A stretch of DNA of 64,000 nt from Owenia fusiformis (lineage: Eukaryota): positions 17,546,001 through 17,610,000 of the forward strand of contig CAIIXF020000001.1 of assembly GCA_903813345.2 (NCBI GenBank), written 5' to 3'. Positions within the stretch are counted from its first letter, which is position 1. Each line of letters starts with the position of its first letter. Positions 34,895-64,000 of the stretch are shown here, piece by piece. A program made the position numbers and the translations under genes. The notes below the pieces were generated by a model. It had not been told where the DNA came from, did no database searches, and was given only the letters and a program-made list of their open reading frames with translations.

Positions 34895-36362
34895 TAACAG
34901 ATTAGGATTACCTAGGAAGTTTGGTTAAATCCCGGGGATCTAAGTAGGATATCCCAAAACCCTTTTTCAATACTAGTAGGAAGTCCTATTTAATTTAACC
35001 AATTCAAATCAGAAAAGCAACAGCTATTCCATGTGTTTATGAGGCACTTGTAAAAGAAACTGAACTTCCACTCCAGGTTACAAGCACTTACCCAAATGTT
35101 TGTCATTATAAAAATAAACTAAATTAAACGGTTTCATGATGAATTGGCCATATTTCACAAATGTGTAACCAATTTGTTGTGGACGCCGAACGAGGGCTCC
35201 GGCGCCGATTAGCGATGAAATAACAAAATGCAGTGGTTTATGTATCACTTTATTTCGAACACTACAAGTCACACTGCCGATATACTTAAGGTACAATTCA
35301 GTAAAGTAAAACAAAACAGTATTATGAAACAAGTGGATTTATTCAGAATCGATCCTTCTGGATGTACCAATATGCATCTTTTCTTTCGCTATGATCACAG
35401 GCCCAGGAAGAAGATTTAACCTCCCCCCCCAGTCACTGTACAATGTAAAAAAAATACAGGCCTGTCTTTTTTTAAGTAATATATAGTGAGTGGAAGGGGG
35501 TTGGACTCTTGTCCCCGTGCCTGTGGCTATGATAATTTAAAAATGATCATGGAAACAGAGTGGGTGAAGTATGATACATAGTACTCGATCTTATACATCT
35601 GAGTATCATTCCCGGGGTATCATTGGGGTGTTAAAACATACTAGGTGATTGCTGCATGCGCCCTGCATTTTCTTGCTTTGACTACATTTGTAACATGGCT
35701 GTCAGGAGATTTATTCCTTCATACACCAACCTTACAAGTAGTCAGGTTTTGAATACAGTCACTAAATTGGCTAAATTATAACCTGATAACAAGTTAAGAA
35801 AATAAAGTTTTTCTTTAAAAGTTCAAAAATTCAGTAAAAATTAAATTTTATCTCTTTAAATCTAAAACAAGGATGGCATGTCTTTGATTTGCTCAATTCA
35901 ATAGATATTACTATCTTATTGAAAATATCAGTCTGAGGGAAATAGCTCTATGGCAAATAATAGTCTATAACAGTACTTTTTCAGATGTCAGGAAACATAT
36001 AAGTATCACTTTCACAGCTAGAATTTCCACCAGTTTAGTTACAGCTTTACATAAGAACATACGTCCGGGATTGATATTTACAATAAGTCCATAGTCCATA
36101 TTATCAAGTGAGTGCTCTACCAAGTGCGGTAGTATTTCAGCAGTACCACAGTTGGTACCATAAAAGTCCAACATACACCAATGGGACATCGAGAGGTAAC
36201 GCATCACATGAGGAATGGGGTTCTAATGAGTTCAGTCTAGGTAAACACAGGGCCTTTCGCCTCTGAGGCCACGCACATTGTTCAATATTGGTTTACATGG
36301 GATTTCTAAATTTGGCATTTGGCCTGCTATGTTCAGTTTAAGATTGAAAATAGATATTTCAA

Positions 36363-39300
36363 TTAAATAAAGTTGGCAGTGATAAGTATCAATGAAACTA
36401 GCAATGAGACTGATGTAGATATTGAAGCTGCGCCATCTGTAGATTCTTGAGTAGTGTTTTCAGCACTACCACTTGCATGATCGTGATCATGATCGTGGTC
36501 GTGAGAATTTCCTTCGTGATGATCGTGAGAATGGCTGTCGCATGTCTTATGAAACCAAGTGTGGTGCAAGTGTTGCAAATGACCATTGTCCTTTAGGGAT
36601 TGTATGGCTTCATTGAAATGTAACACGTGTCGAGAGTTTTTGGGAAAGGCAAGAGCATATCGTCCGAAATTTCCACCTGGGAACTCTATCTCTGTCAGAT
36701 CGCAAGGTTCCTGATGGGCGTAGTATTCAGCGGAAGGAGATTCTACAATAAATGCATAATTGCCTTGTCTGACTTTACGCAGACCGTCAGCAGTAGAACT
36801 GACGTAAGCATCATCGGAATTCAAACGCATCCATCTGGCTGCTTCCTGCACAGTTCTATCATCACTCGATTCTATGTATTTGTCGACACTGCCACCTCGG
36901 ATAGAACCGTACTTAATACCGTCTTCTGCTTGGTTGACGAGGTCTGCAAATGTCTTGATATCTATTTCACCGTTGGATGGTTTCTTTATGAGAATTGCAA
37001 GGCCGAATTCCATGAATGGATCAGAAAAAACAACAGCATTTCCACGCATTGGTGTTACTGTCAGATCTGCAATAGCGATATCAGCATCCTGAAACAATCA
37101 CATTTAATTATATTTAGTTAGTAGATCACTGGTTTATTTTATCTAGCTAGCTTGTATTTGCCAATGCAACTATCGGCTGCCGGCTACCAGGTTAACCCAC
37201 CATTAGCCGGCACCCGAAAGTTGCAATCGCGAATACAAGCCCCGGGATACTAGCTAAATAATCAAATCAAAATTGGTCGTGTTGAGCTTTCACTTCGGAA
37301 CTTGCCGATATTCTTTAAAGGCCCACTTTGCGTATTTTCAATGTTTTTGGGCAAAATAAAGACTTACATTTGAATTTCATAGTATATCCAATGTATTGAT
37401 AAGAACCTGATCTTTCATTTGACACCAACAGCAGCTCAAACAAACCACATCAAAGCTTACAATAAATTATCAAAATATATTTTCTATCTGTCAATATTTA
37501 GTTAGTAGATCACTGGTTTATTTTATCTAGTAAGCTTGTATTTGCGAATGCAACTATCGGCAGTCGGCTACCAGGTTAACCTACTATTAGCCGGCATCCG
37601 AAAGCTGCATTCGCGAATACAAAACCTGGGGATACTAGCAAAGTAATCAAATTAAAATTGGTCGTGTGGAGCTTTCACTTCGGAACTTGCCGATTGTCTT
37701 TAAAGGCCCACTTTGCGTATTTTCAATGTTTTTTGGCAAAATAAAGACTTACATTTGAATTTCATAGTATATCCAATGTATTGATAAGAACCTGATCTTT
37801 CATTTGACACCAACAACAGCTCAAACGAACCACATCAAAGCTTACAATAAAAATTATCAAAATATATTTTCGATCTGTCAAGCTTTATGTATCAAGTTTT
37901 TATCAATGTCATTGAAAGATGGCGAAGTTTTTTGTTAACATGATTTTTATAGAAGTGTCGCCATCTTTTAAATCAACAGCAATATAAAACAAGCACTTTA
38001 CTTAACATGTGCATGCACTTCTAATGATGAAATTCTTTATGCTATGTGAGTTATTTTTTAGAAAATAAAACTCTGTGTCATATTTGAGCGAGTGTGTGTG
38101 TAAAATGTTTCAAGGGTTATTTTTTTCCTTTATTCTTCTAAATTAAGTATAGATGGCCTTTAAGTTAATAATATCACAAAACAAGAAGATGTCAGCCTCC
38201 TAATCTTTTATTATTGTTATAAAGGTAAACTAAATATATTAAACAGCACAGACATCGTCAGGAATGTTCCTTTAACAAAAATGCCCATATTGTAGTCAAA
38301 CAGACTGTCAAACGGGTGTTTAAATTCCGATGTGTGCTGCAAAATCTTATCTTTTTTTATGATCATAGAGCCTTACCTCATTGACGAGCTGCCCTATCAA
38401 ACCATTCCAGCGGTCATTCTCTAGGTATCCATACTTGCCATCAGGAGACTCAGTGATGCTGTACCTAAATTCACCCATGACGTGTTGCAGCTCTTTGATT
38501 AAGTCAATGACGTATCCGGACTCCTTATTAGACACAACTGAGTAAAAGGGTTGACTCTATAAAAAATTTAATATAAACTACATGTGTATCAATTCGATTT
38601 CAATATTTAAGGATTTAAATGAAAAAGATACGAAATCACTAAAACAGCATATCTTCAGTGGAACTTGCAAGGGTAAAATTGGCAAAGCATCAATTTCAAC
38701 ATCAAGAATCAAGTTGTCACCTTGACAACCATTCAACGAATGACCTTGGGTGAGTTATTGGTTGTATAATACATTGCAAATTATATTAAATACTGTGTTC
38801 GGATTCGTGGCTAGAACTCTGGTTAAACTGCAGGTTAAACTGAGCCCAACAAGCCCTTGAAGTCTAACATGTAAGAAAAGAGGCTGAACAAGTGCATTGG
38901 GCTAAATACGGCAAACATTTTAGAAGAAGAAGCTGAATTTCACTCAGAAACCTATAGAAATGTATCTATTATCATTTGAATCATGATAGTTTGAATTCAA
39001 ATTAAATTGTTAATCGAGGAGGAAACTGAATTCTTGAATCACACCTGCATGATTCACTCACATCTATTGTAGTTATCCTGAAGTTTTCATCCGAATGGTC
39101 GTGACCCTCGTGACCTTCATCATGATCTCCGTGATCATGCGCATGATCGTGATCGCCATGGTCACCGTGGTCTTGGGCTGAAATGCACATATGACGCTTT
39201 AATGGAATATTATTTAACCAAAGTTCAATACTCAAATAATCTATTTCAGACATGATCAAAATAAAGTGAATTCAAAATCAAGGAAAAAGTAGACACAAAT

Positions 39301-42300
39301 GTAATGCCCGAACACGAAAAGGCACACTAATTGAAGCCCTACAAAATTTTTGTGACAAAATTTTACTTGGCACATCTGAGGATTCCCCCAAGATTCGCCA
39401 GTTTTAGGTATGTTAGTCTGAGGTTCCGTACATACTACTCAGACTTGGAAAACAATAGTAAATGTTCTGTTCACATTATTCGTAATGGGAAACCAGAAAC
39501 AGACAAGTCGTAATTACTACCAGAAACTTAAAATCGAAACATGTTTTCAAACGGTGCCACGACCAGTGCACCTAGCCACCCACAATTTTTTTTTGTATTT
39601 GTATAAGGCGTACAAGACCTTCTGTTTAAATTAACCATGGAATAGCACCTGTGGAATAATAATATGGCGTTTCGCCAAATGTGGTCGCAAGTGTTGATTT
39701 TCAGATTAATTTTCAGATTAATTTCCCGCCCGAAAATTACAATATGAAAGTAAGGAATTTTAGAAATGTCATTTTTATTGGAAACACGTTTAGTACGTTT
39801 TTATTCCAATTGGCAATAAAATATTTTTGAGACACATGCCACTCAGTTAGTATGCCATGTCTCAACTTTGTTTTGGTAAATGTCTCATGTTTCTTATTCC
39901 AGATCTTCTCGTAGTTTGATTCTGTATTCTATGTATATAAAGGCATAAATCATTTGACAGTCCAACGTACATCGACCAGAAAGAAAGATGAGCAACTCCC
40001 CGGGCACTTACAATATGTTTCTTTAACATGTAACACTCGTATTTGGTCTTATTTCATGTATTTAAGTATGAGATAGCAGTGAACACAATATGCCATCTTT
40101 TTATCCGTTGCTTCTAACATTCCATGATGAACCCTGAATTTAAACTGTCGAGTTATTTGGATATATTTGAACCACCCTCTTTTAGTCGAGAATGTATGAA
40201 ATGCCTGGTGGATCAAGATAAACAAACCAGCAAGTTTCAGAAAATGAACTTCAGGATTTTGAGGTATTTCTTCATCAGGTTAAAATTAGGTAATTTGAGA
40301 TACTCAGGAGTGGTATTCAGTCCTTCTATAAATCTTATGTGTCAATTTTTAACGCAATATTATGTGTGTTTATTTGGAGAATTCCAAATTGGGATTCTAT
40401 GAGAAATAGCATGTGTTGCCCTACTTATTACATGAGCATGCGTCTTTAAGTCACCACCACAAGTGGTGTTAACATAAACATTGATTGCTTCAATGGAAAA
40501 AATAGATTATTCTGACACGAATTACAAACAAATATTGAGATCAAGGTATTGTTTAACAACTGCGCATTCTCAAAACAGAAGTGGTGACATATTGTTAGTC
40601 TCTTTTTATGTGAATGGTGTTTGTCGGTCCGACGGTTCGTGTTCGGTCGTCGGCATCTGTACAAATTCTTACAACTTCCAATAAATTAACAGGTCTATGT
40701 AATGTTGATAATGCCCTTCCATGGGGAATCACAAGACCCATGGTCCTCAAATGTTCACGTTATTGAGTCGTTGAGAGGTCTGGTTACGTTCTTGCTGAGT
40801 ATGCCGTGGTTTCATGTTAATTTGTTCCGTCCCCCCATACACGCCGAGAAAACCCTTTAGCTGTGTCAGGCTTTTGTTTCTGTATTTAGTTCATATACAG
40901 ATTTGTATGCTGCTTCTGATGATTACAAGAACTTTATTTGTTTGCTGACTGACTGTTATGCATTATGATATGAATTGTGTACTTGCTCCTAGACACAACA
41001 TATCGGTTTGGCCTTGTAGAAGGATTCGCTAGGAACATCTGAACTGACAGAGATCTAGTGAGACCGTGAAGGAGCATATAAAAAACAAACATCTTGATGA
41101 ACCATGTCATCTCAGTTCTTCCCAGGCTTGAGATGCCATGACATACATGAAATGAGCTACAGTTGGCGATCTTAGAGCATCATTGGCTAAAGATTACATC
41201 CATGAGCTGCTATGAAAGCAGTGAAGGACCAACCTTAATTGAAGGATGATCTGAGAACCCTGATTTTAAGATTTTTTGGATCTCCCATCTCAGTTTATAC
41301 TACATTGGATTAGGGTCATAAAACTTTTGAGATTGTATCAGCTGGGTTTATATCTAATGATAGTGACAACATAATACAATACATTCTAATGTAGAGACAT
41401 TACTAGCCATGAATATATGATATTCACACATAGCTAGTCAAGGGCATGTGTGTCCAATTCCAGCCAATCAGAACAAGCTATTTCTCGTAACTGCATTCCT
41501 AGAAATTCAGAAAAAATCCAGGGGGTTTCACTTTGACAAATTAAACTTGTTCCAAAATCACTGAAAAATGCTAAAAATTGTGGAAACTACATGATTTTGA
41601 AAGAATTTTTGGCTAGAGGGAGAGGCACCCGAACCTTTCTCACTTATCGACAGGTGACTTTTCCCGTCAGATTCACTAGGATCAAACATCTTATTTCAAT
41701 CAGAGCATTCTGAGTGAAACAAAATTATGTGTTGAGTTTCAGAATGAGAAACAGTGAAAATGTCCGACAAGACACTGACTAGACTTTCAGTGTGCATTCG
41801 TTATTCAAACTGACGGTCCCGTCAGATGAAATAATGATTACCCAATTAGTATTTGAATAGCTTTTATTGCCCTCTGCTGAGAAGTCTGATAGCCACAATC
41901 TACAGAGTGAGGGTCGACTTTTGACTCAACTATCAATCTTATATGTTTACCTAATCTTCAAATGACCATCATTCATAATATCAATAGGCTATTCTGGACC
42001 TTATTGCTTTAATAGCTTTATTGCATGATAACCATCTCAAACTAACACCAAATGACAGCATGTGCGCTGGAAACCTCATAAAACAGATTGTATGACATTA
42101 AATCACCGATAGGTGGAATATTTTCAAGCGAATACACACTCAGTTGACCCCTAAAAGCTGGTACATTGAGGAAATCAACCAAATGACCCTTATGAACTCC
42201 GTTAATGGGCAAATTAGCACTTTAGCAGATTCACATTTGTTACGCTAACGGAGAGACGTGTAATTTAGATCCTCATTATGGTTCGGAATGTCACATTTAT

Positions 42301-43979
42301 CAATTTTTGATGACAGTGATAGCGATAATTTAGACTTTTGACTCTTTTACGATATTTACAAAACATGGTCAATCTCTGCTGCGTCCTCTGGAATAAATGA
42401 AAAAATGTAAAAGACACCCTGCACCAAGCTCCATATTAATTAAAATAAACTGGAACTTGCTTGCCTCCATGAAAAGAATAGTTGTAGATTATTCTGACGC
42501 GACTTACAAACAATTGGTAGCGAAATAGGAACAACTGCGCATTCTCAAAACATATTCAACAAACATATTTGAAAAAAGCTTGCCATGTGTTAACGTACAT
42601 GGAACGATTAGTTCCAATGATAAATGATAACTCAACATACATTTCCCCAAAACTGTTGTGTTTATTCAATGGCCTAGAAACTTGTTTACACTGTACGTAC
42701 GTTACGGCTTTGGAACGTCTATTAACCAATCCCTCTCTTGTTGTTTATCATGTATAGTCTAGTATTAGTCCTAGAAAGAGACCCAGAAAGACATTAAATT
42801 TTCTGATTTCTTCTCTGGCTAAAATTAATGAGGTTGTCACCTAATCTTAAACAATTGATGTTTAATTGCTTTGATTTTGAAATTCAAGCCTACTGAGAAG
42901 TGAGAAGTGTGTGTAGAAGCTTTCAATCTCTAAGCATGATTCTCAACCCCAGGTTCTCAACTCTAAATTTCCATTCTAACCATCTTATAAGAAGTTGAGG
43001 ATTTTTAATCTGAGATTTGATGACATAGTGCTTAGAATCATTGGGTATTATTATCATTATCTGAAATGAGTTCAAATAAAGAAAATCTGGGAGCTTGTTC
43101 TAATAGGGATGGGGGGGGGGGGGGGGGTTCTTGCAAGATACTTCAAACGCGCCGATTATACAGTTTGGGCCAAAACATATTTATATTGAGGCTATCAGCA
43201 TTGTGTCGCTTATCTTCAGCATCTGGTTAATTTATTGATGTTACGTGTTTTATAACATTTTGTCATTACATTCTCACCATTATACCACAAAGTCCCCTAA
43301 GCTTTTGTTAATTCAAGATATGTTTTCAATATTTCGGAAATGTTGATATGAAATAAGATGACTGCTTTCAAAACTGAGTGACATTACAAGTCGCAACACA
43401 ACCCCTTTGTTCACTAGCAAAATGCATCCCTATTGTGCATTGTTATCACTGGTCAGTATCACTGAAAAGTGAAGACGGTCGTTGCCTGGAATTTGAGAAT
43501 CAACATCAACCAATGCATGTGCATCATACGTTTCGTTTTTTGAACGTTGAATTATATATCCAGTGGTATATATCAATACAAGAATGTAGGCCTATCATAT
43601 AGATTGGTTTAAGGGAGTCGTTCTCAAGTCGAATTTTTGTTTTGAATTTGAAGACCTAATTTTGCCAAAAATAAAACATGTTTCCTGGTTATGCTGACCC
43701 ATTCTTCTCGACTCACTCACTCATCTTCCCATTAAAATGCCACTCGTCGGCTTCGTCTGGATTAATAAATAAAGAAATGTTTTTGTAAACTTTCGATCTA
43801 GTTTTATCCGGGCATCATAGTTATTCCACTGTCTGGTTCCCCCCACGTCCGACACAAATCTCCGTCGAGTTATCTGAGCTATCTTGACAGAATAATTCAA
43901 TGTTTAATTAATTTAAAAAATCTAATTACTTACCGCATACAAGGCCGATCAAAAGGAGAAGGAGGGCGCAGATATTCAT
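36363..43979 (-). CDS. Secreted/GPI-anchored ionotropic-glutamate-receptor ligand-binding-domain-only protein with His-rich flanks, 4 exons, about 355 aa
   Basis: Exon 43979-43934 encodes signal peptide MNICALLLLLIGLVC. Exon 39177-39062 encodes a His/Asp tract plus FRITT. Exon 38556-38377 encodes PF...GYVIDLIKEL...DGKYG...WNGLIGQLV. Exon 37088-36363 encodes ADIAIADLTVTPMR...FSDPFM...LIKKP-SNGEID-IKTFADL...YAFIVES...PCDL...YALAFPKNS...WFHKTC, a His tract and a hydrophobic tail. All introns are GT-AG with matching phases. Confidence 0.88.
37110..37881. repeat. Tandem duplication of about 385 bp at the 3' end of intron 3 of the LBD gene
   Basis: Units 37110-37493 and 37494-37881 both start atatttagttagtagatcactgg. 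The second unit overlaps a TTAA|AGGCC...GGCCT|TTAA element (about 37700-38163). Confidence 0.9.
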
Positions 43980-44520
43980 CTCTTAGTTCTTCCAATACGT
44001 TCCACGTGCCCTTTTAAAGTACCTTATCCAAACAGCGTGCAAAGAGTAAGCGTGTACAACTGGAGTTGAAAAATCTGCATCCAATTTCTTCAAGCCCTTC
44101 AACAGAGGTAATGAAACACTAACCAAGAGCCTCTTCGGCGAGGAATCAGATTTGAATTCGTCATGCGTTTGGTACATCAGCGGGTCACGTGGTTGCTTAG
44201 TTTGGATTGTTTACTATGGAGCACCACATTTGTTTCATATCATATTACAGTACGAATCCCAACCGTCATTTTTCGAACTACTGGCAGACCCCCGATATAC
44301 AGTCCTACACTATATGCCCTATATGCGAATGCACAGGCTAACATGGGAGAAGGTGGGATGTCCCCTCCTTTTTTGGTTGTTTTTGTGAATGATTCTAATG
44401 TTGGACTTTTATATGGGGCTAATCTTCGGCCGCTCTCTGAAAAACATTGATAATGTATAGATTAAAAAATAAAAATTGGAAATAGGAGCTTCTAAGAAGA
44501 AGCTTCAATAAAAACATAAT

Positions 44521-45803: not shown

Positions 45804-46245
45804 CATAAGGAAGACACAAAAATCAACATTACAAAATGGACGACGTTGAACTGAAACTTTGAAAACCTAATGACCAAAAACTAATTCATGCGATCACAAA
45901 TCAAAATATCTTAATAGCCGATTCTGATTTGTTCATTAAAAGTCAACATTTGACCGCTGTTGTACGGTTGACCGCTATTAACGTCAATAGGCATTGCTTT
46001 GGGATCCCCTTAAAGGCTCTTAAATTTTGCCTCAACTAGTGGGCCTTTTTGGGCATTATTTTAATTTTTGACTAAATGTGCCTTAAATTAAAAAATTTGG
46101 GCCCAATTTTTGGTTTCAGGAAGGAATAAGGAATGATTCTTTACAGATACGAAATTTGCCACCCACTCCCCTTAGCTTCCAGATCCTAACATATCAGCTG
46201 ATCTAGAAATTCGGGCTCAGGATCAACAGTCTCAGCATACACTTT

Positions 46246-46815
46246 TAACCAAAGCTACCATACTGATGATAAATAAAGCTACCATTCTGATGATAACTAA
46301 AGCTATCATACTGATGATGACCAAAGCTACTGATGATTACCAAAACGACTATTCTGATGATAACCAAAGCTACTATACTGATGATATTCAAAACTATATA
46401 ATGATGATAACCAAAGGTACCATACTGATGATGACCAAAGCTACTGATGATTACCAAAACGACTATTCTGATGATAACCAAAGCTACTATACTGATGATA
46501 TTCAAAACTATATATTGATGATAACCAAAGCTACCATACTGATGATAACCAAAGCTACTATACTGATGATATTCAAAACTATATACTGATGATAACCAAA
46601 GCTACCATACTGATGATAACCAAAGCTACCATTCTGATGATAACCAAAGCTACCATTCTGATGATAACCAAAGCTACTATACTGATGATATTCAAAACTA
46701 TATACTGATGATAACTGATGATAACCAAAGCTACAATTCTGATGATAACCAAAGCTATCATACCAATGATAACCAAAGCTACCATTCTAAGACTACTATA
46801 ATACTGATTACCAAA
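46246..46815. repeat. Minisatellite of about 21 bp (actgatgataaccaaagctacc-like)
   Basis: Periodicity is directly visible and explains the low-complexity ORFs at 46245-46785. Confidence 0.92.
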
Positions 46816-61809: not shown

Positions 61810-63776
61810 TTTTTTTCTCAGTTTATTTATTTCAATTTCCTTGATATTGATATACAAAAGTATGCCTTTGTTAACTTAATAACATTATCGGCATAGTAAA
61901 TATTAAAAATATAATACAGGAAATACAAAATACAAAAACCACGTAGTATGTTCAGTCTATATGTATGCTTGCTCCCCATCCCACCCATAAGGTTCCCAAA
62001 GGAATTTAGAATGTTTCACTGGCTCTTTAAAACTGTGATTGCTGTTGAGACATAGTGAGCCACGATTTCAATAATTTTGCTATTCATCACATCACTAAGG
62101 TTGGTATCCCCATACAAAAGTGTATCTGATTTCTTAGAGATTGTTAAATTTCTGAAATCTGGCAGACATTCCAGTTCGTCGAGTCCTGCAAGAAGCAATT
62201 CCCTTTCATTTATGAGCAGTGGACATTTGATTAGAAAATGAGAAGTGGTTTGATGAGCTGCACCACATGGACATTTGGGATCATTAATTGTGGTAAAATT
62301 GTGGGCATGTAAATGGCTATTAAGCAAGAGTCCAGCTCTAAGTCTGTTGAAAGTAATTTCAGTTTGTCTTGGCATAGTGTACTCCATTTTGGATGTGGGT
62401 AAGGATACATGGCTCCTTTGCTTCCTGACTGATCTTTTAAATCTTGAGATTGGCTGCCCAACTCGGATAGTTGGTGGAAGCCCATTCCAAGCTGAGATGG
62501 CACTAAAGATTGTAGATTTTTTGGTTGAGACACTAGTATGTAATGGAATCTGATAATCTGGCTGATCTCTCAGCCTTCTAGTGTGAACAATTTCATAAGT
62601 TCTCACCACATCACAGATGAAGGGAGGTAAAGCATTAAAGCGTGCCTTAAAAATAAAATTTTTTAAGTGCTCATCTCTTCTCGATGCCAGCTTTTTCCAA
62701 TTTAGAGAAGAAAGTACCTTATCAGTATTTGACCCATGAATAGCACCTGAAACTAGGCAGGCTGCTCTATAGTGCAGACTTTCGAGAGCTTGGAGCTTAA
62801 GAGCTGATGCTTTATTGTAAATTATGTCACAGTAATCTAAGTGGGGTATGAAGTAAGCATTGTAAATTGTTTCAAGATGTTTGCTTGATAACTTTTTACT
62901 AAGAGCCTTCAATGGCCTCATTAAAATTGTCAATTTGTTAATCAGTTGGTCAATGTGGGCATTAAAGTTTAAGTGTTTATCTAACACTATTCCTAAGTGC
63001 TTATGGGTATCTGTCATTGGTATTTGCTAATTTCCTAAAGTTAATGATGGTTGAGCTGCTAATTGGGTTCTTTGGCCATAAAAGGTTAGATCAGCACTTT
63101 TTTGGGCTTTAAATTGCATGCGCCAAGTGGTTGCCCATTGGTTAAGATTGTTCAGATCTTGTTGAAGGGGTTGATTTAAATTCAATAGCATGTCAGAGTT
63201 TCTGTCATAGGCATCATAAAGTGACGTATCATCAGCAAAAAATAAAAGCTTTGGAGTTTAAGTTGTCAGGTAAATCGTTAATATATATTAAAAAAAGTAG
63301 GGGACCCAAAACAGAACCTTGGGGAACACCGGCATTTATAATGTATTGGGGTTTATTGGGATTATTGACCGGATTGTTGTTGTTACCAATTAATTCAGGA
63401 TCAGAGGACCAATCGGAAAGGCAGTTATTAATACGCACTTTAACCCTTCTGTCTTTAAGATAGGAGGTCATTAATAGAATAATTTCATTGCTACATCCGT
63501 ATGCTTTAAGTTTTTTTATTAAGAGTTTGTGGGGTACCAAATCAAATGCAGACGTCAGGTCTAAAAATATTGAACGGACATTTTTCTGTTGATCAACATT
63601 AGTTTGTATATCATGAACAATGTTGATCAGTTGATTCACCGTATTGTGTTGTGGTAAAAAACCACTTTGAAATTTATACAAGAGATTATTATCCAGTAAA
63701 TGAAGAAGGAGTCTGTTGTGGATTATTTTTTCTAATACTTTGGATAGTGAGCATAGTAATGTAACTGGTCTATATG
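61810..63776 (-). mobile_element. 5'-truncated, inactivated LINE (CR1/L2-group-like RT) in an ACE intron, sense to the gene
   Basis: Motifs YRPVTLLCSLSKVLEKII, QSGF, FLDLTSAFDLV, GVPQGSVLGPLLFLIYIND. There is a frameshift in an A-run just before FADD (about 63237-63243) and an in-frame TAG at about 63027. C-terminal CPCG..QTTSHFLIKC, AATAAA plus A-tail at about 61810-61830, and a possible TSD tatgat. Confidence 0.92.
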
Positions 63777-64000
63777 ATCATGTCTGATACTCATAAAGTT
63801 AAACTTAAAATCTTAATCATAATAGGTGTAACCTAGATGAATATGATCTACAGTGTATACAGAGAGTGCTATCCCTTTTTATAACATCACTAATTTTATC
63901 ATAACTATCATAACGGTTATTTGATTACCTGATGTAAGGCGTGTTTCCAGGTATATGGTATTTGGCACCTGGATCAAAATCGTCTTCTGTTCTTTGTACA

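What the first reader, a model, noticed from the sequence alone, without database searches (positions are those of the whole stretch)
36363..43979. Channel-less glutamate-receptor ligand-binding protein: a natural S1S2 fusion with signal peptide and GPI-type tail
Seen: four in-phase exons give an intact 355-aa ORF. The end of S1 (FGLAILIKKP) joins the start of S2 (IKTFADL) through only SNGEID inside one continuous exon, so the M1-M2-M3 pore is absent from the gene itself rather than skipped. There is no amino-terminal domain. After the last LBD Cys (WFHKTC) come a His tract, a polar spacer, a small-residue site (DGA/AS) and a terminal hydrophobic stretch with no cytoplasmic tail. Established: animal iGluRs interrupt S1 and S2 with the pore, and crystallographers rejoin them with a GT linker; molluscan AChBP is the stand-alone analogue for Cys-loop receptors. 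Inference: this is a surface-tethered amino-acid-binding protein (transmitter buffer, decoy or co-receptor), an iGluR counterpart of AChBP. I cannot tell from here whether such a family has already been described.
Basis: partly seen in the sequence, partly recalled or inferred. Interest (0 to 1): 0.92.

Follow-up and report, generated by a model that had tools for sequence, protein, structure and literature searches.

The report
Pore-less glutamate-receptor binding-domain protein
An annelid worm gene makes only the amino-acid-binding clamshell of a glutamate-receptor channel, with no ion pore, a secretion signal and a membrane-tether tail, and similar unremarked proteins occur in mites, a copepod and many marine transcripts.

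Summary
Four GT-AG exons on the minus strand (43979-43934, 39177-39062, 38556-38377, 37088-36363) give a 355-aa protein identical to an unnamed Owenia fusiformis protein. All three splice junctions are present in assembled contigs of two runs from two studies.

The protein consists of:
- a signal peptide;
- a His/Asp-rich tract;
- a complete iGluR S1-S2 ligand-binding domain, joined by six residues inside one exon;
- a second His/Asp tract;
- a hydrophobic C-terminus.

No pore, M4 or ATD coding sequence lies anywhere in the 64-kb window. The AlphaFold model superposes on S1S2 crystal constructs (TM 0.80-0.88).

The gene is not an oddity. 63 of the 149 best relatives that I classified are natural pore-less proteins. 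Named members are three Owenia paralogues, eight acariform mite species and a copepod. They keep the amino-acid-binding Arg (62/63) and Glu (53/63).

Function is inferred: a surface-tethered or secreted amino-acid binder that acts without gating. GPI anchoring and the ligand are untested. Nine literature searches found no description of this architecture. I rate it a new variant of a known kind, interest about 0.7.

The parts
43980..44127 (-). 5' UTR (minimum extent)
   Evidence: The X1 contig record 6 runs from 44127 to the exon-1 donor. An in-frame TAA lies 6 nt upstream of the ATG (output).
43934..43979 (-). Exon 1: ATG and signal peptide (MNICALLLLLIGLVC, first base of codon 16)
   Evidence: The donor is GT. 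The junction 39177/43934 is seen in X1 and X7. Hydrophobic residues 1-19 were found by the Kyte-Doolittle scan.
39178..43933 (-). Intron 1 (4756 nt), holding interspersed repeats
   Evidence: A joint skipping 4756 nt with CT..AC ends. No iGluR-like coding sequence was found in it by tblastn.
39062..39177 (-). Exon 2: His/Asp-rich tract (10 His and 9 Asp in residues 16-45) and the first strand of S1 (ENFRITTID)
   Evidence: composition. Junctions on both sides are seen.
38377..38556 (-). Exon 3: first part of S1 (SQPFY...DGKYG...WNGLIGQLVNE), holding Tyr96
   Evidence: Pfam PF10613 on this exon alone, E 5.2e-13. Junctions. Tyr96.
37089..38376 (-). Intron 3 (1288 nt), with a tandem duplication of about 385 bp
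   Evidence: A joint skipping 1288 nt. Direct repeats at 37110-37483 and 37494-37868, 91-92% identical.
36363..37088 (-). Exon 4: end of S1, six-residue linker, all of S2, His tract, tail and stop codon (36363-36365)
   Evidence: One continuous frame. Acceptor AG. Holds the binding residues Asp122, Thr124, Arg129, Ser181, Val182 and Glu230, and Cys243/Cys297.
36960..36977 (-). Natural S1-S2 linker SNGEID (residues 152-157), at the place where channel subunits carry M1-M2-M3
   Evidence: Alignments. The engineered construct P0062 has a 2-residue linker at the same place. Coordinates are computed from the exon-4 phase.
36474..36539 (-). C-terminal His/Asp tract (residues 298-319; one search counts 9 His and 6 Asp over residues 298-320)
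   Evidence: An in-frame 6-nt deletion variant lies at 36484 in one X11 contig.
36366..36425 (-). C-terminal hydrophobic end SISTSVSLLVSLILITANFI (residues 336-355), preceded by the small residues DGAAS. It is either a GPI-attachment-type signal or a short membrane anchor.
   Evidence: hydrophobic to the last residue, with no charged residue in the last 6.
36100..36362 (-). 3' UTR (minimum extent; it continues beyond the stretch that was laid)
   Evidence: X1 record 1 (1544 nt) is colinear over 36100-36968, with 675 nt more lying beyond 36100.

Best explanation
This is a real, spliced and expressed Owenia fusiformis gene. Its product enters the secretory pathway and consists of a stand-alone glutamate-receptor-type ligand-binding clamshell (S1 and S2 joined by six residues), flanked by two His/Asp-rich tracts and ending in a hydrophobic C-terminus. 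It has no ion pore, so it cannot gate current.

It most likely sits on the outer face of the cell membrane, held by a GPI anchor (favoured) or by a short terminal helix. There it most likely closes around a free alpha-amino acid, using the same Arg, Thr and Glu contacts as channel subunits. Whatever it does, it does by binding: capturing, buffering or presenting the ligand.

The His/Asp tracts probably bind divalent metal and are specific to the Owenia paralogues.

Shown here: gene structure, splicing, domain content, fold, absence of a pore, and conservation of the binding residues across a family. Inferred: GPI anchoring, amino-acid binding, metal binding and the physiological role.
For: Gene and transcript:
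- Four GT-AG exons give a 355-aa product identical to P0001.
- All three junctions are in contigs of X1 and X7, from two studies. Intron bins there are near zero and exon bins are high.

Domain and fold:
- PF10613 scores E 1.3e-29 and PF00497 E 1.6e-15. No PF00060 is reported at E <= 0.01.
- The best solved relatives are engineered GluA2 S1S2 (E 2.1e-37) and the GluD1 LBD, each matched in one stretch.
- The AlphaFold2 model built with 57 aligned relatives has pLDDT 84.9, mostly above 90 over residues about 45-298. Foldseek gives E about 3e-29 and target-normalised TM 0.80-0.88 to GluK1, GluA2 and GluD1 S1S2 structures.

No pore:
- The S1-S2 junction lies inside one exon.
- tblastn with 83 pore-bearing relatives gave 187 matches, all in exons 3 and 4 and none elsewhere in the 64 kb.

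Binding site:
- P0001 keeps Tyr96, Thr124, Arg129, Ser181, Glu230 and the Cys243-Cys297 pair.
- Among 63 natural pore-less relatives, Arg is kept in 62, Glu in 53, Thr in 48, Tyr in 52 and the two Cys in 60 and 56. These rates are close to those of 83 pore-bearing relatives.

Architecture is heritable:
- Named pore-less members are Owenia (3 paralogues), 8 mite species and a copepod.
- In mite orthologues the LBD part is 93/85/73% identical against 67/30/26% for the tail.

Tail:
- 40 of 84 natural pore-less proteins end in a hydrophobic stretch with 0-2 residues after it, against 12 of 83 pore-bearing ones.
Against: - No ligand, anchor or localisation was tested.
- P0001 has Val at the place of GluA2 Thr655 and Asp at Pro478 (numbering recalled), so the ligand need not be glutamate.
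- Of 9 listed exon-4 variants, 5 change the protein and 4 do not. Within the LBD core the split is 2 against 4. This is at best weak evidence of constraint, and 31 further variants were not shown.
- 44 of 84 relatives lack a hydrophobic C-terminus and 32 of 84 lack a signal-like N-terminus by my crude scan. Some of these are incomplete models.
- The hydrophobic end could be a remnant of M4 rather than a GPI signal.
- The runs carrying the spliced contigs are labelled 'RNA?' by guess. The one run on record as RNA (X18) gave under 1x depth on exon 4.
- The tree does not resolve how the Owenia pair relates to the other pore-less groups.
Confidence: 0.6

Rival explanations
1. It is a regulatory pseudo-subunit. 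The free LBD pairs through the back-to-back LBD dimer interface with LBDs of channel-forming iGluR or IR subunits, or with another surface receptor. It tunes or blocks them, or hands them ligand, rather than acting alone.
For: The fold is that of a channel LBD. Membrane tethering would hold it beside receptors. iGluR LBDs pair back to back in solved structures; LBD dimers are among the hits.
Against: No partner was identified or tested. The place of GluA2 Leu483, a dimer-interface residue (recalled), is Pro in P0001 (alignment). About half of the relatives, including the paralogue P0005, have no tail and would diffuse away.
Confidence: 0.15
2. It is an amino-acid capture protein for uptake. 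Like a bacterial periplasmic binding protein, or a GPI-anchored vitamin receptor, it concentrates dissolved amino acids at an epithelial surface for transporters or endocytosis.
For: It has the same fold and continuous topology as bacterial SBP_bac_3 proteins (PF00497 matched). Many relatives come from unnamed marine transcript collections. X7 shows very high contig depth (a poor measure of expression).
Against: No transporter link was found. Terrestrial mites also carry the family. The sequence is far closer to animal channel LBDs than to bacterial binding proteins: PF10613 scores 103 bits against 57.5 for PF00497, and the listed PDB hits are animal iGluRs.
Confidence: 0.1
3. It is chiefly a metal-binding secreted or matrix protein. 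The two His/Asp tracts are the working parts and the clamshell is a scaffold that no longer binds a small ligand.
For: There are 10 His and 9 Asp in residues 16-45, and 9 His and 6 Asp in residues 298-320. The tracts are kept in the paralogue P0005, and these two are the most His-rich of the 63 pore-less proteins. X7 shows very high depth.
Against: The tracts are absent from all other family members, whereas the binding-site Arg/Glu and the disulfide are kept family-wide and in P0001. The tract length is polymorphic (6-nt deletion).
Confidence: 0.1
4. It is a gene-model artefact or a decaying remnant of a channel gene with no function.
For: Short iGluR-like models in databases are often fragments. 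P0036, for example, keeps pre-M1 and post-M3 residues around a deletion.
Against: The frame is intact with canonical splice sites. Spliced contigs occur in two studies, with a stop upstream of the ATG and a UTR after the stop. There are two further Owenia paralogues and many relatives with the same architecture. The binding residues are kept.
Confidence: 0.03

Closest known systems
Engineered S1S2 ligand-binding cores of AMPA, kainate and delta receptors (e.g. GluA2 S1S2J, PDB 1ftj/1ftk; GluD1 LBD, 8blj)
   Same: Same domain and same topology, with S1 joined directly to S2 by a short linker. There is a one-stretch sequence match (E 2e-37) and a structural match (TM 0.80-0.88, rmsd about 1.7-2.9 A). 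The Arg/Thr/Glu contacts and the Cys pair are kept.
   Different: Those are laboratory constructs cut out of channel genes. Here the fusion is encoded by the genome in one exon, with a six-residue natural linker, a signal peptide, His/Asp tracts and a membrane-tether tail.
Molluscan acetylcholine-binding protein (AChBP)
   Same: By analogy only: a stand-alone extracellular ligand-binding domain of a ligand-gated ion-channel family, made without the channel (recalled knowledge).
   Different: It belongs to an unrelated fold and family (Cys-loop). AChBP is soluble and pentameric and its buffering role was shown experimentally. For this protein, oligomeric state, solubility and role are unknown, and it carries a hydrophobic tail.
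Channel-forming iGluRs and IRs, including ATD-less forms (kainate-binding proteins, most IRs, bacterial GluR0)
   Same: The LBD is homologous. Like those forms, it lacks the ATD. 35 of the 149 relatives classified are short pore-bearing forms of this type.
   Different: All of those keep M1-M2-M3 between S1 and S2. This protein and 62 of its relatives have at most about 30 residues there.
Bacterial periplasmic amino-acid-binding proteins (Pfam SBP_bac_3, e.g. GlnH-type)
   Same: A continuous two-lobed clamshell without a pore, exported and sometimes lipid-tethered. PF00497 is matched.
   Different: The gene is an intron-bearing animal gene. It matches the eukaryotic channel-specific S1 model PF10613 more strongly (103 against 57.5 bits), keeps the iGluR disulfide and the 'KWW...C' end, and its listed solved relatives are animal iGluRs.
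Database entries named 'glutamate receptor kainate-like' in acariform mites (e.g. Sarcoptes scabiei KPM05378, 357 aa; Dermatophagoides P0086 and P0156)
   Same: Same pore-less architecture, with PF00497 + PF10613 and no PF00060, and often a hydrophobic C-terminus. In the quick LG+G4 tree they fall in one all-pore-less clade with P0001 (SH-aLRT 97).
   Different: They are 29-36% identical to P0001 and lack the His/Asp tracts. Many have long low-complexity tails of about 175-280 residues. Under a site-mixture model the grouping with Owenia has support of only 35. They are annotated automatically as receptors. The scabies paper lists KPM05378 among 'ionotropic receptors', and none of the passages seen comments on the missing pore (passages).

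Membership tests
iGluR-type ligand-binding domain (S1S2 clamshell) | Match to the S1 model PF10613 (Lig_chan-Glu_bd) above Pfam's gathering score | tested here: met
   103 bits against a cut-off of 30, E 1.3e-29, covering profile positions 2-114 of 115.
iGluR-type ligand-binding domain (S1S2 clamshell) | Two-lobed fold that superposes on solved LBDs | tested here: met
   AF2 pLDDT 84.9. Foldseek TM 0.80-0.88 by target and E about 3e-29 to GluK1, GluA2 and GluD1 LBDs.
iGluR-type ligand-binding domain (S1S2 clamshell) | Alpha-amino-acid contacts (Arg485, Thr480 and Glu705 in GluA2; numbering recalled) and the lobe-2 disulfide | tested here: met
   Arg129, Thr124, Glu230 and Cys243/Cys297 are present. 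Thr655 is replaced by Val182.
Ionotropic glutamate receptor (ion channel subunit) | Pore module M1-M2-M3 inserted between S1 and S2 (Pfam PF00060) | tested here: not met
   Only six residues lie between S1 and S2, in one exon. No PF00060 hit. No pore-like coding sequence in the window.
Ionotropic glutamate receptor (ion channel subunit) | M4 helix and cytoplasmic tail after S2 | tested here: inconclusive
   A 15-20-residue hydrophobic end exists but has no cytoplasmic residues. Whether it descends from M4 could not be decided.
GPI-anchored surface proteins | N-terminal signal peptide | tested here: met
   A hydrophobic core at residues 1-19, with V-C-A before the His/Asp tract (sequence). No dedicated predictor was available.
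GPI-anchored surface proteins | C-terminal signal: small residues, a short polar spacer, and a hydrophobic stretch running to the last residue | tested here: met
   DGAAS, then SISTS, then VSLLVSLILITANFI, with 0 trailing residues and 0 charges in the last 6. Judged by inspection and a hydropathy scan only.
GPI-anchored surface proteins | Actual cleavage and lipid attachment | not testable with these tools
   Needs NetGPI-type prediction and PI-PLC release.
AChBP-like stand-alone receptor domains (functional analogy) | Ligand-binding domain of a ligand-gated channel family encoded without the channel | tested here: met
AChBP-like stand-alone receptor domains (functional analogy) | Soluble, secreted, and modulates transmission by buffering the ligand | not testable with these tools
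   P0001 has a tail, whereas its paralogue P0005 (312 aa) has none. No functional data exist.
Bacterial SBP_bac_3 binding proteins | Closer to bacterial binding proteins than to eukaryotic channel LBDs; intron-less bacterial gene | tested here: not met
   Three spliceosomal introns. The gene lies on a 62-Mb Owenia contig. PF10613 outscores PF00497. All 60 listed solved relatives are animal iGluRs.

The most novel reading that the evidence does not exclude
Pore-less iGluR ligand-binding-domain proteins are an old and widespread animal family that channel-centred surveys have overlooked because they discard sequences with fewer than two transmembrane helices. On this reading the family was present before annelids and arthropods split. 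Its members work as extracellular amino-acid buffers, decoys or co-receptors, making them the glutamate-receptor counterpart of AChBP. The Owenia members add metal-binding His/Asp tracts.
Probability: 0.25. Interest if true: 0.9.

Novelty: new variant of a known kind. Interest (0 to 1): 0.72.

Why it matters
Glutamate-receptor ligand-binding domains are normally thought of as parts of channels; free S1S2 domains are known as laboratory constructs. A natural, expressed and conserved family of free, tethered or secreted domains would mean that animals use this clamshell for something other than gating. Possibilities include buffering or sensing of amino acids at cell surfaces, decoy or co-receptor action on synaptic or chemosensory receptors, and nutrient capture.

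It would also change gene counts. Such proteins are now counted as 'ionotropic receptors' in genome papers or filtered out of phylogenies by transmembrane-helix filters.

The proteins are small and naturally soluble-domain-like, so ligand screening and crystallography should be easy. The mite members occur in species of medical interest (house-dust and scabies mites).

Tried and rejected
- Whole-genome search: no genome is held for this window, so paralogues and synteny could not be examined. Paralogues came only from protein databases.
- The look-up of sequencing runs: no RNA holder listed. The runs holding the stretch are labelled 'RNA?' by guess.
- X11 showed unspliced, intron-covering contigs and no junctions. 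X18 (raw RNA) gave under 1x depth on exon 4.
- Single-sequence AlphaFold2 failed (pLDDT 37) and was replaced by the alignment-based model.
- The search for homologous proteins with the 57-sequence alignment was swamped: only the 8000 candidates sharing most words were scored, and only 11 passed.
- The careful IQ-TREE search on 101 rows did not finish in three 300-s calls. Only quick trees are reported. The two quick trees disagree on support for Owenia + mites (97 under LG+G4 with 168 rows; 35 under the mixture model with 101 rows). I therefore make no claim on the number or age of pore losses beyond 'at least 10 state changes on one quick tree'.
- Variant counting for selection was too sparse to use.
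- The ESM Atlas hit to a 261-aa 'kainate-like' chordate cluster (score 0.85) is a lead only and was not followed.
- Earlier-findings look-ups gave nothing relevant.
- Literature: searches found no description. I saw passages only of PMC2924276, PMC12226733, PMC4930577, PMC6275457 and PMC7738191. Supplements were closed and may list such sequences.


Full report
**What is in the sequence**

The finding lies on the minus strand. The largest piece is a single open frame, 36363..37097. In it the end of S1 (FGLAILIKKP) runs through SNGEID straight into the start of S2 (IKTFADL). It continues to WFHKTC, a His/Asp tract, a polar spacer and a hydrophobic end.

Reading the splice sites gives four exons:
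- 43979-43934
- 39177-39062
- 38556-38377
- 37088-36363

All introns are GT..AG, with phases 1, 0 and 0. The CDS is 1068 nt. Its 355-aa product is identical to a database protein, 'unnamed protein product [Owenia fusiformis]' (P0001), found on a 62-Mb contig. A TAA lies in frame 6 nt upstream of the ATG (output).

**Transcript evidence**

I laid four public runs on 36100-44200. Contigs of X1 and X7, which come from two studies, carry all three junctions with CT..AC ends on the + strand: 37087/38376, 38556/39062 and 39177/43934. One 529-nt X1 contig joins the 5' UTR and exons 1, 2 and 3. A 1544-nt X1 contig is colinear across the stop codon and far into the 3' UTR.

Contig depth over exons is about 16 in X1 and about 5,000-40,000 in X7. 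Most intron bins are 0-20, except where interspersed repeats lie. The only other joint between these exons is a 2-nt shifted variant at depth 23, against 13,000 for the main form.

X11 looks like DNA or unspliced material. X18, the one run on record as RNA, has under 1x depth on exon 4, with all first mates on the + strand. That orientation fits a minus-strand RNA in a stranded library, but it rests on a handful of reads.

**What the protein is**

Pfam finds PF10613 (Lig_chan-Glu_bd, E 1.3e-29, nearly the whole profile) and PF00497 (SBP_bac_3, E 1.6e-15). It does not find PF00060, the model that holds the pore.

The best solved relatives by sequence are engineered GluA2 S1S2 cores (E 2.1e-37), the GluD1 LBD and the Drosophila KaiR1D LBD. 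Each matches in one continuous stretch.

A single-sequence AlphaFold2 model failed. With 57 aligned relatives the model reached pLDDT 84.9, mostly above 90 for residues about 45-298. Foldseek then gave E about 3e-29, target-normalised TM 0.80-0.88 and rmsd about 1.7-2.9 A to GluK1, GluA2 and GluD1 LBD crystal structures. The ESM Atlas's own model agrees.

The natural linker is four residues longer than the two-residue linker of the construct P0062. tblastn with 83 pore-bearing relatives against the whole 64-kb window gave 187 matches, all in exons 3 and 4. So no pore, M4 or ATD exons lie hidden in the introns or flanks.

**Other features**

- Residues 1-19 are hydrophobic and end in V-C-A.
- After Cys297 comes a second tract with 9 His and 6 Asp in 23 residues.
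- The end is DGAAS-SISTS-VSLLVSLILITANFI, with nothing after it.

This end has the layout of a GPI-attachment signal. It could instead be a short anchor descended from M4. I could not decide between the two.

**Binding site**

I used the stored GluA-type construct P0062 as a ruler; the residue numbers are recalled from GluA2. P0001 keeps Tyr (96), Thr (124), Arg (129), Ser (181), Glu (230) and the disulfide pair (243/297). It has Asp for Pro478 and Val for Thr655. Its paralogue P0005 has Leu at the Thr655 place.

From memory, a hydrophobic residue at that place is a feature of the glycine-binding GluN1 subunit. The ligand may therefore be an amino acid without a distal carboxylate. This is a lead, not a result.

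**A family, not an oddity**

A full HMMER search of 1.84 billion representatives found 3172 relatives at E <= 1e-3. I could classify 149 of the best hits:
- 63 are natural proteins of about 200-480 aa with S1 and S2 contiguous (largest insert under 30 residues).
- 83 carry a pore insert of 78 residues or more.
- 3 were set aside: two are crystallisation constructs and one is a doubtful model.

The 63 keep Arg in 62, Glu in 53, Thr in 48, Tyr in 52 and the two Cys in 60 and 56. These rates are much like those of the pore-bearing set.

Names could be recovered for a minority:
- Two further Owenia paralogues: P0005 (312 aa, on another chromosome, His-rich, no tail) and P0008 (329 aa, on the same chromosome, with a tail).
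- The mites Dermatophagoides pteronyssinus and D. farinae (several paralogues each), Sarcoptes scabiei, Blomia tropicalis, Tyrophagus putrescentiae, Oppia nitens, Medioppia subpectinata and Dinothrombium tinctorium.
- The copepod Eurytemora carolleeae.

All of these have PF00497 + PF10613 without PF00060 and inserts of 33 residues or fewer. The remainder are unnamed 1-2.5-kb contigs from Logan, JGI/IMG, ENA and a marine eukaryote catalogue.

Of 84 natural pore-less proteins, 52 start with Met plus a hydrophobic N-terminus, 40 end in a hydrophobic stretch with 0-2 residues after it, and 20 have both. Only 12 of 83 pore-bearing proteins end that way.

In mite orthologues the LBD part is 93, 85 and 73% identical, while the tail is 67, 30 and 26% identical. 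The His/Asp tracts are peculiar to Owenia P0001 and P0005.

**Phylogeny**

On a quick LG+G4 tree of 168 LBDs the pore / no-pore state changes at least 10 times. Most pore-less proteins sit in three all-pore-less clades of 32, 24 and 12 members (SH-aLRT 97, 92 and 86). The first of these holds P0001, P0005 and nearly all of the named mite proteins.

On a quick site-mixture tree of 101 rows the mite clade (28 members, support 94) and the Owenia pair (support 100) stand, but the branch that unites them has support of only 35. The careful search did not finish.

The architecture is clearly inherited within clades. Whether it arose once before the annelid-arthropod split or several times is open.

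**How it most likely works**

The protein enters the secretory pathway, loses its signal peptide, and is displayed on the cell surface by its C-terminal signal. There the clamshell closes on a free alpha-amino acid through Arg129, Thr124 and Glu230. With no pore it can only act by binding.

The candidate roles are buffering or decoy action, ligand presentation to another receptor, pairing with channel LBDs, and capture for uptake. I rank 'stand-alone binder' above 'pseudo-subunit', 'uptake helper' and 'metal/matrix protein'. 'Artefact or relic' is close to excluded.

The His/Asp tracts probably bind divalent metal. Their length is polymorphic, with an in-frame 6-nt deletion in one contig.

**Comparison with what is known, and novelty**

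In form it is the natural twin of the crystallographers' S1S2 construct. In concept it is the analogue of AChBP. It is a member of the iGluR LBD fold family but fails the defining test for an ionotropic receptor because it has no pore. It is not a bacterial binding protein.

Nine full-text searches found no description of pore-less iGluR LBD proteins. The passages I read point to why they may have been missed:
- A 2025 pan-eukaryote iGluR phylogeny removed sequences with fewer than two predicted transmembrane helices (PMC12226733).
- A scabies-mite paper lists the 357-aa member KPM05378 simply among 'ionotropic receptors' (PMC4930577; the identity with P0174 comes).

Supplements were closed, and subscription journals are outside the library, so an earlier mention cannot be excluded.

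I rate it a new variant of a known kind. Confidence is high for the anatomy and moderate for the mechanism. Interest is about 0.7.

Noticed in passing
window 37110-37868 (intron 3): A tandem duplication with a period of about 385 bp. The copies lie at 37110-37483 and 37494-37868 and are 91-92% identical. RNA-run contigs touch parts of it at raised depth.
   Followed up: partly
window 40436-40706, 41520-41790 and 37726-37996 (introns 1 and 3): These stretches show very high contig or read depth and many loose ends in all four runs, on both strands. They look like copies of interspersed repeats transcribed elsewhere in the genome.
   Followed up: no
window 62016-63777, minus strand: A 181-aa frame matches reverse transcriptase RVT_1 (E 3.8e-25). 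The adjoining 336-aa frame has no Pfam match. Together they look like a LINE-type retrotransposon fragment.
   Followed up: partly
window 36484 (C-terminal His/Asp tract): An in-frame 6-nt deletion is seen in one X11 contig. Three of the five protein-changing variants listed in exon 4 fall in the tail (N308D, S330A, T331K), so the tail is polymorphic.
   Followed up: partly
window 43113-43133 (intron 1): A run of about 21 G.
   Followed up: no
window 46176-46589, plus strand: A 137-aa frame made of repeated 'TKATILMI / DDYQNDYSDDNQSYYTDDIQNY' units, which indicates a tandem DNA repeat rather than an evident gene.
   Followed up: no
proteins P0009, P0011, P0017 and others (35 of the 149 relatives classified): Many relatives are 385-650 aa long. 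They have no amino-terminal domain but keep a full pore insert and a C-terminal helix, the same layout as kainate-binding proteins and most IRs. Most are unnamed.
   Followed up: no
run X7, exons of this gene: Contig word depth over the exons is about 5,000-40,000, against about 16 in X1 and about 10-33 in X11. This hints at very strong expression in that one sample. The sample type is unknown and was not sought.
   Followed up: no
ESM Atlas, first hit for P0001: A cluster of 56 eukaryote proteins of about 261 aa, commonest in Chordata, named 'Glutamate receptor kainate-like protein', with PF00497 + PF10613 in all members (score 0.85, a lead only). They may be fragments or constructs, or pore-less forms in chordates.
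   Followed up: no
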